A stretch of 64,000 bases of DNA from Mobula hypostoma (Eukaryota), in contig NC_086107.1 in the NCBI RefSeq assembly GCF_963921235.1, forward strand, positions 95,606,001 through 95,670,000, written 5' to 3'. Position 1 is the first letter of the stretch; every line of letters begins with the position of its first letter. A program made the translations under genes and the position numbers. This document shows, piece after piece, positions 39,112 to 62,434 of this stretch. The notes under the pieces are model-generated. The model did no database searches. It saw only the letters and a program-made list of their open reading frames with translations, and was not told the origin of the DNA.

Positions 39112-39228
39112 TTAAAGAATTATGCACTTCTTCTTTGAAGGCTTTTTCTTCCTTTTACCATTTTTGCTGATCTTCTCCTTGTATTTACGAATTTCACGCA
39201 CTAATGTATAGAATGCATCTTCCACACC
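39112..39228 (-). CDS. KRASBL: KRAS4B-like GTPase, coding exon 4B-type ([38 protein letters not shown])
   Basis: Read directly from the sequence (too short for the ORF track). Acceptor ttctaatttcag|GGT. Length 117 nt including TAA. Polybasic tail plus CaaX; total protein 188 aa. Confidence 0.96.
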
Positions 39229-39904
39229 CTGAAATTAGAAGAATGTACTTGAAGTGAAGGGGAAACAAAACTCAGGAATTTCATTCTTGGTGACCAGAAA
39301 AGCGCACATACAGTACCGTTTTTTTTAAATGTACCTGTCTCATCCACTTCCTGTAGGAAGTCACTTCATATACTGACCACTCTGTGGGTGAAAAGCTGCC
39401 CCTCAAGTTCCTATTCAATTGCTGCCCTCTTACCTTAAACCTATGCACAACATTCCCCAGGGCCCAACCAGTGTACAAGTTCTATACTCGTTTCATTTCC
39501 CAAAGTGCAATACTTCACACTTATTTGCCAATCTTTGACCCACTCACCCAGCTGATCAAAATCTTCTATAATTTTTTAAAACCTTTACTGTCTGTGATAT
39601 CATCTATTTTAGTATCATCTGCAAACTTATGAACCATGCTTTACATTTACATTGTTTTGTTTTAAAATAAATAACAAATGAAGGTCCCAGCACCAACCCC
39701 CATGGCCTCTCCAGTCTGAGGAATAACCTTCGGCCCTCACTCTCTGCTTCCTACCATTTAGCCATTTCAGGCCCTCCTTTGGTAGAGGTCGACCATGGAT
39801 GTTGCGTTCTAGCTGTCAATGTGATACATAAGCCAGGGCAGTATAATATTGAGGGGAAGCTATTGCCCATGAAACAGTTTGGTACCAGTGGCATCGCAGG
39901 AGTT

Positions 39905-42166
39905 AGAAACATAGAAAATAGGTGCAGGAGTAGGCCATTCGGCCCTTTGAGCCTGCACTGCCATTCAGTATGATCATGGCTGATCATCCAACTCAGAACC
40001 CTGTACCAGCCTTCCCCCCATACCCCCTGATCCCTTTAGCCACAAGGGCCATATCTAACTCTCTCTTAAATATAGCCAATGAACTGGCCTCAACTGTTTC
40101 CTGTGGCAGAGAATTCCACAGATTCACCACTCTCTGTGTGAAGAAGTTTTTCCTAATCTCGGTCCTAAAAGGCTTCCCCTTTATCCTCAAACCGTGACCC
40201 CTCGTCCTGGACTTACCCAACATCGGGAACAATCTTCCTGCATCTAGCCTGTCCAATCCCTTTAGGATTTTATACGTTTCAATAAGATCCCCCCTCAATC
40301 TTCTAAATTCAAACGAGTATAAGCCTAGTCGATCCAGTCTTTCATCATATGAAAGTCCTGCCATCCCCAGGAATCAATCTGGTGAACCTTCTTTGTACTC
40401 CCTCTATGGCAAGAATGTCTTTCCTCAGATTAGGGGACCAAAACTGCACACAATACTCCAGGTGTGGTCTCACCAAGGCCTTGTACAATTGCAGTAGTAC
40501 CTCCCTGCTCTTGTACTCGAATCCTCTTGCTATGACTGCCAGCATACCATTCGCCTTTTTCACCGCCTGCTGTACCTGCATGCCCACTTTCAATGACTGG
40601 TGTATAATGACACCCAGGTCTCGTTGCACCTCCCCTTTTCCTAATCAGCCACCATTCAAATAATAATCTGTTTTCCTGTTTTTGCCACCAAAGTGGATAA
40701 CCTCACATTTATCCACATTAAATTGCATCTGCCATGAATTTGCCCACTCACCTAACCTATCCAAGTCACCCTGCATCCTCTTAGCATCCTCCTCACAGCT
40801 AACACTGCCGCCCAGCTTTGTGTCATCCGCAAACTTGGAGATGCTGCATTTAATTCCCTCATCCAAGTCATTAATATATATTGTAAACAACTGGGGTCCC
40901 AGCACTGAGCCTTGCGGTACCCCACTCGTCACCGCCTGCCATTCTGAAAAGGTCCCGTTTATTCCCACTCTTTGCTTCCTGTCTGCTAACCAATTCTCCA
41001 TCACATCAATACCATTCCCCCAATACCGTGTGCTTTAAGTTTGCACACTAATCTCCTGTGTGGGACCTTGTCAAAAGCCTTTTGAAAATCCAAATATACC
41101 ACATCCACTGGTTCTCCCCTAACCACTCTACTAGTTACATCCTCAAAAAATTCTATGAGATTCATCAGATTTTCCTTTCACAAATCCATGCTGACTTTGT
41201 CCGATGATTTCACCACTTTCCAGATGTGCTGTTATCACATCTTTGATAACTGACTCTAGCATTTTCCCCACCACCGATGTTAGGCTTAACCCGTCTATAA
41301 TTCCCCGGTTTCTCTCTCTCTCCTTTTTTAAAAAGTGGGGTTACATTAGCCACCCTCCAATCCTCAGAATCCCTTCAATTTACCTAACACCACTTCCCTA
41401 CTAACATGCATTTCCCTCAGTTCCTCCATCTCACTAGACCCTCTGTCCCCTACTATTTCCGGAAGATTATTTATGTCCTGCTTAGTGAAGACAGAACTAA
41501 AGTAGTTATTCAATTGGTCTGCCATGTCCTTGCTCCCCATAATCAATTCACCTGTTTCTGTCTGTAGGGGACCTACGTTTGTCTTAACCAATCTTTTTCT
41601 TTTCACATATCTATAAAAGCTTTTACAGTCAGTTTTTATGTTCCCTGCCAGTTTTCTCTCATAATCTTTTTTCCCTTTCCTAATTAAGCCCTTTGTCCTC
41701 CTCTGCTGGACTCTGAATTTCTCCCAGTCCTCAGGTGAGCTACTTTTTCTGGCTAATTTGTATGCTTCTTCTTTGGAATTGATACTATCCCTAATTACCC
41801 TTGTCAGCCACGGGTGCACTACCTTCCCTGATTTATTCTTTTGCCAAACTGGGATGAACAATTGTTGTAGTTTATCCATGCGATCTTTAAATGCTTGCCA
41901 TTGCATATCCACCGTCAACCCTTTAAGTGTCATTTGCCAGTCTATCTTAGCTAATTCATGTCTCATACCTTCAAAGTTACCCCTCTTTAAGTTCAGAACC
42001 TTTGTTTCTGAATTAACTATGTCACTCTCCATCTTAATGGAGAATTCCACCATATTATGGTCACTCTTACCCAAGGGGCCTCTCATGACAAGATTGCTAA
42101 TTAACCCTTCCTCATTGCTCAATACCCAGTCTAGAATAGCCTGCTCTGTAGTTGGTTCCTCGACAT
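39905..42166 (-). mobile_element. 5'-truncated young CR1 LINE in RAS intron 3
   Basis: ORF2 pieces KSDHN, GVPQGSVLGP, FADD and RPHLEYCVQFW. TTTCTATG-type tail at 39905. Internal deletion near 41364. Confidence 0.93.
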
Positions 42167-61675: not shown

Positions 61676-62290
61676 AAACACCAGGGAATCTGCAGATGCT
61701 GGAATTTCAAGCAACACACATAAAAGTTGCTGGTGAACGCAGCAGGCCAGGCAGCATCTCTAGGAAGAGGTACAGTCGTCGTTTCGGGCCGAGACCCTTC
61801 GTCAGGACTAACTGAAAGAAGAGCTAGTAAGAGATTTGGAAGTGGGAGAGGGACGGGGAGATCCGAAATAATAGGAGAAGACAGGAGGGGTTAGGGATGG
61901 AGCCAAGAGCTGGACAGTTGATTGGCAAAAGGGATATGAGAGGATCATGGGACAGGAGGCCTAGGGAGAAAGAAAAGGGGGAGGGGGTGAAGCCTCAAGG
62001 ATGGGCAAGGAGTATAGTGAGATGGATAGAGGGAGAAAAAGGAGAGAGAAAAAAAGAATGTGTGTATATAAATGAATAAATAACAGATGGGGTATGAGGG
62101 GGAGGGGGGCATTAGCGGAAGTTAGAGAAGTCAATGTTCATGCCATCGGGTTGGAGGTTACGCAGACGGAATATAAGGTGTTGTTCCTCCAACCTGAGTG
62201 TGGCTTCATCTTTACAGCAGAGGAGGCCGTGAATAGACATGTCAGAATGGGAATGGGATGTGGAATTAAAATGTGTGGCCACTGGGAGAT
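61676..62290 (-). mobile_element. Penelope-like element 3' fragment in RAS intron 1
   Basis: Reverse complement of ~56960-57563. 10-bp duplication ATTTCCCTGC at 61666-61675 and 62291-62300. Confidence 0.88.
61774..61809 (-). ncRNA. Hammerhead motif with mutated cleavage triplet (GUC to GAC)
   Basis: Minus strand AGTC-CTGACGA-AGGGTCTCGGCCC-GAAAC-GAC-GACT. Confidence 0.65.
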
Positions 62291-62323
62291 ATTTCCCTGC
62301 CTCATCTCAGCATCTTCACTTAC

Positions 62324-62434
62324 CTCGATCGTTGGATCATATTCATCTACAAAGTGGTTCTGTATCAGCTGGATTGTCAGAGCACTTTTCCCCACGCCAC
62401 CAGCTCCCACTACCACCAGCTTGTATTCGGTCAT
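62324..62434 (-). CDS. KRASBL: KRAS4B-like small GTPase, coding exon 1 (aa 1-37, [37 protein letters not shown])
   Basis: ATG at 62434. Canonical RAS N-terminus with P-loop. Donor GAG|GTAAGT follows 62324. Length 111 nt, the same as the classical RAS first coding exon. The paralogue name (KRASBL vs KRAS) is inferred. Confidence 0.97.

What the first reader, a model, noticed from the sequence alone, without database searches (positions are those of the whole stretch)
39112..62434. The RAS gene looks like the fourth vertebrate RAS paralogue (KRASBL), not KRAS
Seen: an intact 188-aa KRAS4B-type ORF with classical exon sizes and wild-type G12/G13/Q61. Reading the 9.2-kb intron 3 (39229-48413), which is almost all LINE debris, I found no exon-4A-like sequence. 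Against human KRAS4B as recalled I count 17 substitutions: T87I, I93V, H95L, K101N, E107D, D132Q, R135K, I142V, D153E, H166Y, M170I, D173N, K176R, K180P, T183K, V186I, M188L. Established: jawed-vertebrate KRAS carries both 4A and 4B exons, and a 4B-only paralogue named KRASBL, absent from mammals and birds, has been described. Inference: this is that little-studied paralogue.
Basis: partly seen in the sequence, partly recalled or inferred. Interest (0 to 1): 0.72.

Follow-up and report, generated by a model that had tools for sequence, protein, structure and literature searches.

The report
Ray copy of known KRASBL gene
This is an ordinary, intact copy, most likely from a devil ray or close relative, of KRASBL, the already described fourth vertebrate RAS gene that resembles KRAS4B but is predicted to carry a longer (geranylgeranyl) membrane anchor.

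Summary
Four minus-strand GT-AG exons (111/179/160/117 nt, phases 0/2/0) give 188 aa ending CIIL. The 17 listed substitutions are exact. Intron 3 holds no exon-4A-like sequence, with working positive controls.

The protein is identical to annotated Mobula 'HRas/KRas-like' records. It is 4-5 residues from the elephant-shark and skate proteins that define KRASBL in PMC9882654, and 18-20 from chondrichthyan KRAS4B. It sits in a 99/95 KRASBL clade, and AU tests reject grouping with KRAS4B (p 0.0005 and 0.0015). Synteny, a second KRAS locus in this genome, and splicing could not be tested.

Likely function (inferred, not shown): a wild-type RAS switch held on the plasma membrane by a polybasic tail and a geranylgeranyl group.

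This is a known gene, already annotated. Two side leads: a kiwi record falls in the clade although birds are said to lack KRASBL (lizard contamination not excluded), and teleost zgc:55558 looks like the orthologue.

The parts
62324..62434 (-). Coding exon 1 (111 nt, residues 1-37; P-loop with G12/G13, start of switch I)
   Evidence: GT donor; residues checked
62435..62520 (-). Probable 5' untranslated part of the first coding exon, behind a pyrimidine-tract AG acceptor at 62520; the non-coding first exon and promoter probably lie beyond the window end
   Evidence: inferred from sequence only, not confirmed by transcripts
55336..62323 (-). Intron a (6,988 nt, phase 0), repeat-rich
55157..55335 (-). 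Coding exon 2 (179 nt; switch II with Q61; I87, V93, L95)
48574..55156 (-). Intron b (6,583 nt, phase 2)
48414..48573 (-). Coding exon 3 (160 nt; N101, D107, Q132, K135, V142)
39229..48413 (-). Intron c (9,185 nt, phase 0); no exon-4A-like sequence; retrotransposon remnants
40648..41034 (-). Reverse-transcriptase fragment of a LINE remnant in intron c
   Evidence: RVT_1, E 2.8e-14
46400..46897 (+). Second LINE remnant in intron c
   Evidence: RVT_1 E 7.4e-5 (below Pfam cut-off), PF09004 E 2.7e-9
39112..39228 (-). Coding exon 4 (117 nt with stop; 4B type; residues 151-188)
39115..39180 (-). Hypervariable region, residues 167-188: KEK neutralised-basic motif, polybasic tract (net +10), S181, one cysteine only
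   Evidence: motif definitions from PMC9882654
39115..39126 (-). CaaX box CIIL, predicted geranylgeranylation site
   Evidence: PMC9882654; PMC11152559 passages
36467..39111 (-). Probable 3' UTR of about 2.4-2.6 kb with AATAAA at 36668, 36594 and 36467
   Evidence: no strict within-window repeat in 36445-39336; end not confirmed by transcripts

Best explanation
The gene is the KRASBL (KRAS4B-like) orthologue of a myliobatiform ray, most likely Mobula. Shown: intact four-exon frame, 4B-type last exon, no exon 4A, terminal CIIL, placement with the reference KRASBL proteins. Inferred from family knowledge: it works as a normal classical RAS GDP/GTP switch. Residues 1-86, with the P-loop and both switches, equal human-type KRAS4B, so it should use the same GEFs, GAPs and effectors (RAF, PI3K, RALGDS). 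Its tail should be geranylgeranylated by GGTase-I on C185, then trimmed and methylated. It should be held on the inner plasma membrane by that C20 lipid plus a polybasic tract, with no palmitoylation, and S181 is a possible phospho-switch. It would make one C-terminal form only, and would be a stickier, farnesyltransferase-independent counterpart of KRAS4B. Confidence in identity is about 0.96; in geranylgeranylation as the main anchor about 0.8.
For: 0 differences to P0151 (Mobula), 1 to P0150 (Hypanus/Hemitrygon), 3-5 to ten other chondrichthyan records. These include 4 to NP_001279499.1 and 5 to XP_032869079.1, the accessions that PMC9882654 Suppl. File 1 labels shark and skate KRASBL. There are 18-20 differences to four chondrichthyan KRAS4B proteins; in 4 of 4 taxa with both genes stored the window is 3-5 from one and 18-20 from the other. 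Tree of 54 rows: 23-row clade, 99/95. AU tests reject a clade with three chondrichthyan KRAS4B (p 0.00047) and with all 11 gnathostome KRAS4B rows (p 0.0015). No 4A exon. Among stored 184-190 aa proteins with Cys at -4, 82 of 82 with V93 plus N/S101 end in L or F, and 36 of 37 KRAS4B-type end in M. CIIL was fully geranylgeranylated by human GGTase-I in a yeast reporter (PMC11152559, passages).
Against: The G-domain alone gives only weak support: the same 23 rows group at SH-aLRT 87, unstarred. The bootstrap had not fully settled (0.981). The terminal Leu is not exclusive: a rattlesnake KRAS4B ends CIIL and cartilaginous-fish HRAS also ends in L. PMC11152559 also found CaaL sequences prenylated when human FTase was present, so the lipid type is a prediction. 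Synteny and a second KRAS locus in this genome are untested. No biochemical or expression data for this gene were obtained.
Confidence: 0.95

Rival explanations
1. It is true KRAS that has lost exon 4A and diverged.
For: The last exon is 4B type with the same length (188 aa), 171 of 188 residues equal human-type KRAS4B, and one rattlesnake KRAS4B also ends CIIL. No Mobula KRAS record was seen among the cluster members listed (large clusters were shown only in part).
Against: It lacks the KRAS states I93, H95, K101 and D153. It is 18 residues from sawfish and skate KRAS but 3-4 from their KRASBL. AU tests reject this grouping.
Confidence: 0.02
2. It is HRAS or NRAS, as the automatic name 'GTPase HRas-like' suggests.
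For: NCBI names of identical or near-identical records; L95, E153 and Y166 are NRAS-type states; cartilaginous-fish HRAS ends in L.
Against: The tail has a polybasic tract and one cysteine, with no palmitoylation cysteines. HRAS and NRAS rows form their own supported clades. No chondrichthyan HRAS was in my tree; the paper's shark and skate HRAS tails, read by eye, carry extra cysteines and no polybasic tract.
Confidence: 0.01
3. It is a lineage-specific duplicate of KRASBL, or a silent copy, rather than the main orthologue.
For: No genome is held, so copy number is unknown; no transcript evidence was obtained.
Against: Intact frame, canonical splice sites and large introns; protein identical to the annotated Mobula product.
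Confidence: 0.02

Closest known systems
KRASBL (KRAS4B-like) of Garcia-Espana and Philips, PMC9882654; references Callorhinchus NP_001279499.1 and Amblyraja XP_032869079.1
   Same: Four coding exons in phases 0/2/0, 4B-type tail with KEK motif, polybasic tract and S181, terminal L, no exon 4A; 184 and 183 of 188 residues identical.
   Different: T87I, E132Q, I142V and K176R against elephant shark. Q132 was seen only in the Mobula and Hypanus/Hemitrygon records among the chondrichthyan rows. Neighbouring genes not seen.
Mobula hypostoma XP_062918645.1 'GTPase HRas-like isoform X1' / Mobula birostris 'GTPase KRas-like' (P0151)
   Same: Identical over 188 residues.
   Different: None at protein level; the records carry automatic names, not KRASBL. 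What the other isoform implied by 'X1' is was not found.
KRAS4B of jawed vertebrates
   Same: Residues 1-86 identical to human type; same tail architecture and length.
   Different: 17 substitutions to human type and 18-20 to shark/ray KRAS4B; ends in L, not M; no alternative exon 4A in intron 3.
Teleost zgc:55558 cluster (P0076, 187 members)
   Same: V93, L95 and N101, a basic tail and terminal L; three teleost rows fall in the same 23-row clade.
   Different: Longer branch and a more diverged tail; 14 G-domain differences for P0329. Orthology rests on the tree, not on synteny.

Membership tests
Classical RAS (KRAS/HRAS/NRAS group) | Invariant switch signatures at residues 31-42 and 59-72; wild-type G12/G13/Q61 | tested here: met
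   No difference from human-type KRAS4B before residue 87; definition from PMC9882654; Pfam Ras E 3.4e-60 for the identical P0151
KRASBL | Four coding exons, introns in phases 0, 2, 0 | tested here: met
   111/179/160/117 nt, GT..AG; shared by all vertebrate RAS genes, so not diagnostic alone
KRASBL | 4B-type tail: K/R-E/D-K/R motif, polybasic domain, S/T at the 181 position | tested here: met
   KEK at 167-169, net +10 over 167-188, S181; definitions
KRASBL | CaaX ending in L or F (geranylgeranyl signal) | tested here: met
   CIIL; the modification itself was not tested
KRASBL | No exon 4A in the third intron | tested here: met
   with positive controls; no chondrichthyan 4A protein was among the queries, shark NRAS last exons were
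KRASBL | Groups with the reference KRASBL proteins, apart from KRAS | tested here: met
   99/95 clade; AU p 0.00047 and 0.0015; G-domain alone only 87, unstarred
KRASBL | Neighbourhood of tead2, dkkl1, pth2, ccdc155, galanin, gfy | not testable with these tools
   No genome held; 0 of 83 non-repeat frames in the flanks reached a Pfam cut-off; gene list from Suppl. Fig. 7 text
KRASBL | Separate KRAS gene in the same genome | not testable with these tools
   indirect only: both genes are on record in Leucoraja, Scyliorhinus, Heterodontus and Pristis
KRAS (4A/4B locus) | Exon 4A between exon 3 and exon 4B | tested here: not met
   elephant-shark KRAS has it there
KRAS (4A/4B locus) | Farnesyl-type CaaX (terminal M) and KRAS states I93, H95, K101, D153 | tested here: not met
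   L188; V93, L95, N101, E153. The four G-domain states are my own reading of the stored sequences, not a published definition
KRAS (4A/4B locus) | Flanked by ETFRF1 and DNAI7 | not testable with these tools
HRAS / NRAS | One or two palmitoylation cysteines and PBR1 in place of a polybasic tract | tested here: not met
   Only C185 in the tail; definitions

The most novel reading that the evidence does not exclude
KRASBL is a non-redundant, geranylgeranylated fourth RAS whose range is wider than published: it survives in at least one bird (kiwi, XP_025918807.1), in a region that maps to a hard-to-sequence avian dot chromosome, and it is the teleost gene zgc:55558. Its reported loss in birds would then be partial, and its function could be tested directly in fish. 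The kiwi part rests on one record that is 1 residue from gecko and 5 from crocodilians, so lizard contamination or convergence is as likely as a real gene.
Probability: 0.3. Interest if true: 0.4.

Novelty: already known. Interest (0 to 1): 0.15.

Why it matters
For this window it matters little: it gives the correct name to a gene that databases call 'HRas-like' or 'KRas-like'. The naming does matter for comparative work, because fish and frog records named KRAS include KRASBL (Xenopus NP_001008034.1 is one, per the paper). KRASBL itself is a natural test of why vertebrate RAS proteins moved to farnesyl anchors while one paralogue kept a geranylgeranyl signal. My search for the term found one paper, which is a sequence analysis. 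The ray copy adds no new handle on that question; a teleost orthologue would.

Tried and rejected
Whole-genome tests (second KRAS locus, synteny): no genome is held.

Neighbour genes: 83 stop-free frames of at least 36 aa with under 40% repeat cover, in 1-37,500 and 62,450-64,000, gave 5 weak Pfam matches, all below cut-off. Shorter or repeat-masked frames were not tested, so a neighbour exon is not excluded. Rfam: 0 matches in the window.

Expression and splicing: no RNA holder listed (22 runs, none on record as RNA). Laying 4 of those runs on 36,500-56,000 was swamped by repeat contigs. None of the 15 joints shown (631 more not shown) was an exon junction, and the tool drops human-like contigs, so this says nothing for or against splicing.

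An alternative isoform of the Mobula gene: none appeared among the best 120 of 542 hits.

Degenerate 4A exon downstream of exon 4: best motif score 30 at about 33,850, E 0.05-0.37, taken as chance.

Literature on zgc:55558: one search was swamped by unrelated numbers and one returned 0 papers; neither shows that nothing is in print. Earlier scan findings: none.

Terminal L as sole diagnostic: rejected, because of the rattlesnake KRAS4B and shark HRAS. Structure prediction was not run; with 171 of 188 residues equal to KRAS4B it would add nothing.

Full report
Observation. The gene lies on the minus strand with coding exons at 62434-62324 (111 nt), 55335-55157 (179), 48573-48414 (160) and 39228-39112 (117, with the stop). 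All donors are GT and all acceptors AG; the phases are 0, 2, 0; the 567 nt give 188 residues ending CIIL. G12, G13 and Q61 are wild type.

Exon 4A. The first 16 residues of a 4A exon are nearly the same as those of a 4B exon, so the gene's own exon 4 is a fair probe. In the 9,185-nt intron 3 it found nothing by tblastn (best E 0.25-0.48) or blastn (best E 0.41), and no AG-started frame of 25-50 codons ends in Cys-x-x-x-stop. Seven stored last exons (4 KRAS4A, 2 shark NRAS, 1 HRAS) gave best E 0.14-0.94 in intron 3, while all 7 found the real exon 4 in the whole window at E 2e-13 to 2e-7. The 15-residue motif scores 63-72 on those true exons and at most 15 in intron 3. No chondrichthyan 4A protein was among the probes. 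Elephant-shark KRAS has its 4A exon in this intron (PMC9882654 Suppl. Fig. 8 text). Intron 3 is repeat-rich: 41% to 85% is similar to other parts of the window, depending on stringency, and 2 of 6 frames tested hit reverse transcriptase, one below Pfam's cut-off.

Identity. A search with exon 4 returned the elephant-shark protein NP_001279499.1 first (accession). PMC9882654 Suppl. File 1 labels that accession shark KRASBL and XP_032869079.1 skate KRASBL. The window protein differs from them by 4 and 5 residues. It is identical to P0151 (Mobula hypostoma 'HRas-like isoform X1', M. birostris 'KRas-like') and 1 residue from the Hypanus/Hemitrygon record, so the source is probably a devil ray or close relative (inference). 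At 13 of the 17 positions the window has the elephant-shark KRASBL residue (my count). In Leucoraja, Scyliorhinus, Heterodontus and Pristis both genes are on record; the window is 4, 3, 5 and 3 residues from one and 18, 19, 20 and 18 from the other.

Phylogeny. I chose 53 stored proteins and labelled them myself from names and tails, anchored on the paper's accessions. In the 54-row tree the window lies in a 23-row clade (99/95) with chondrichthyan, bichir, teleost, amphibian and reptile KRASBL-type proteins and one kiwi record; the bootstrap had not fully settled. With the 4 invertebrate rows left out, AU tests rejected a clade of the window (with Mobula and Hypanus) and three chondrichthyan KRAS4B (p 0.00047) or all 11 gnathostome KRAS4B rows (p 0.0015). 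On the G-domain alone the same 23 rows group apart from KRAS, but only at SH-aLRT 87, unstarred, so much of the signal is in the tail. No chondrichthyan HRAS, gar or coelacanth row was available.

What could not be tested. No genome is held, so synteny and a second KRAS locus stay open. No neighbour gene was detected in the 36 kb downstream (0 of 83 flank frames at a Pfam cut-off). The read tools gave nothing usable on splicing.

How it most likely works. Shown: residues 1-86 equal human-type KRAS4B. The tail has KEK at 167-169, net charge +10 over 167-188 (+9 for KRAS4B by the same count), S181 and a single cysteine. From established RAS biology (my own knowledge): it should cycle between GDP and GTP under the usual GEFs and GAPs and signal through RAF, PI3K and RALGDS. 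From papers: a terminal L or F directs geranylgeranylation and marks KRASBL (PMC9882654; PMC9141697), and CIIL was fully modified by human GGTase-I in a yeast reporter, though CaaL sequences were also prenylated with human FTase present (PMC11152559). Inferred: a C20 anchor plus the polybasic tract holds it more firmly on the plasma membrane than KRAS4B, independent of farnesyltransferase, with no palmitoylation cycle and one tail form only. Among stored full-length proteins with Cys at -4, 82 of 82 with V93 plus N/S101 end in L or F, while 36 of 37 KRAS4B-type end in M; the exception is a rattlesnake KRAS4B ending CIIL. L95 is the NRAS-type state; position 95 is reported to govern isoform selectivity of switch-II-pocket drugs (PMC11061598, listing and start of abstract only). 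Tetrapod KRASBL rows have H95.

Novelty. Already known. The family is described, shark and skate members are in the defining paper, and the identical protein is annotated under an automatic name. The text of the paper's supplements does not mention Mobula (alignment figures that are pictures could not be read). The term KRASBL occurs in 1 paper of the library; I recall a later journal version, which I did not see.

Side leads. A kiwi record (Apteryx rowi XP_025918807.1, 11-kb contig) has the KRASBL signature, falls in the clade, and is rejected from KRAS4B (AU p 0.017), although the paper says birds lack the gene and does not mention kiwi. TEAD2 and MYBPC2, listed as KRASBL neighbours, map to the paralogon of avian dot chromosome 31, where MYBPC2 is kept and TEAD2 is lost in all birds (PMC12954441 supplement). 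Against it: it is a single record, 1 residue from gecko, 2 from other squamates and 5 from crocodilians, which is the wrong order for a bird. A large teleost cluster whose members are named zgc:55558 in several species also falls in the clade.

Papers seen. PMC9882654 (preprint): abstract, whole Results, figure and supplement legends, passages, Suppl. File 1 part 1 of 5, text of Suppl. Figs 7 and 8; no figures. PMC12954441: abstract, one passage, supplement passages. PMC11152559 and PMC9141697: passages. PMC11061598: search listing only.

Verdict. Identity as KRASBL about 0.95. Ordinary orthologue of a described gene; interest 0.15.

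Noticed in passing
P0192 (Apteryx rowi XP_025918807.1): A kiwi protein with the KRASBL signature and CVIL end, although KRASBL is reported absent from birds. It is closer to geckos (1 difference) than to crocodilians (5), so contamination or convergence is possible.
   Followed up: partly
P0076 cluster (187 members): Teleost proteins named zgc:55558, 'KRas' or 'HRas' form a long-branched group inside the KRASBL clade; the defining paper's main text does not mention teleosts or zebrafish.
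   Followed up: partly
P0003 and P0002 (Crotalus): A rattlesnake KRAS4B with a normal KRAS G-domain ends in CIIL and shares N173 with KRASBL: a possible independent shift to a geranylgeranyl signal in true KRAS.
   Followed up: no
P0183, P0187 (Xenopus NP_001008034.1, NP_001081316.1): [quoted passage not shown]
   Followed up: no
window 62435-62520 (-): If the acceptor at 62520 is used, five ATGs lie within 65 nt upstream of the start codon, none in frame by my count; a weaker AG 15 nt before the start could avoid them.
   Followed up: no
window 36445-39111 (-): About 2.6 kb behind the stop codon holds no strict within-window repeat in an otherwise repeat-rich region and ends in three AATAAA signals just before a repeat: a long, probably constrained 3' UTR.
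   Followed up: partly
window 56784-57131 (+), intron a: GIY-YIG endonuclease fragment within a repeat family of about 500-600 nt with several copies of 80-92% identity in the window; probably a Penelope-type element (name recalled).
   Followed up: no
window 12400-16200 (+): A longer, decayed LINE with a 376-aa endonuclease frame at 13403-14533, about 79% identical over 1.5 kb to the copy in intron 3.
   Followed up: no
window 1-36400: No coding exon of another gene was detected in 36 kb downstream of the gene.
   Followed up: partly
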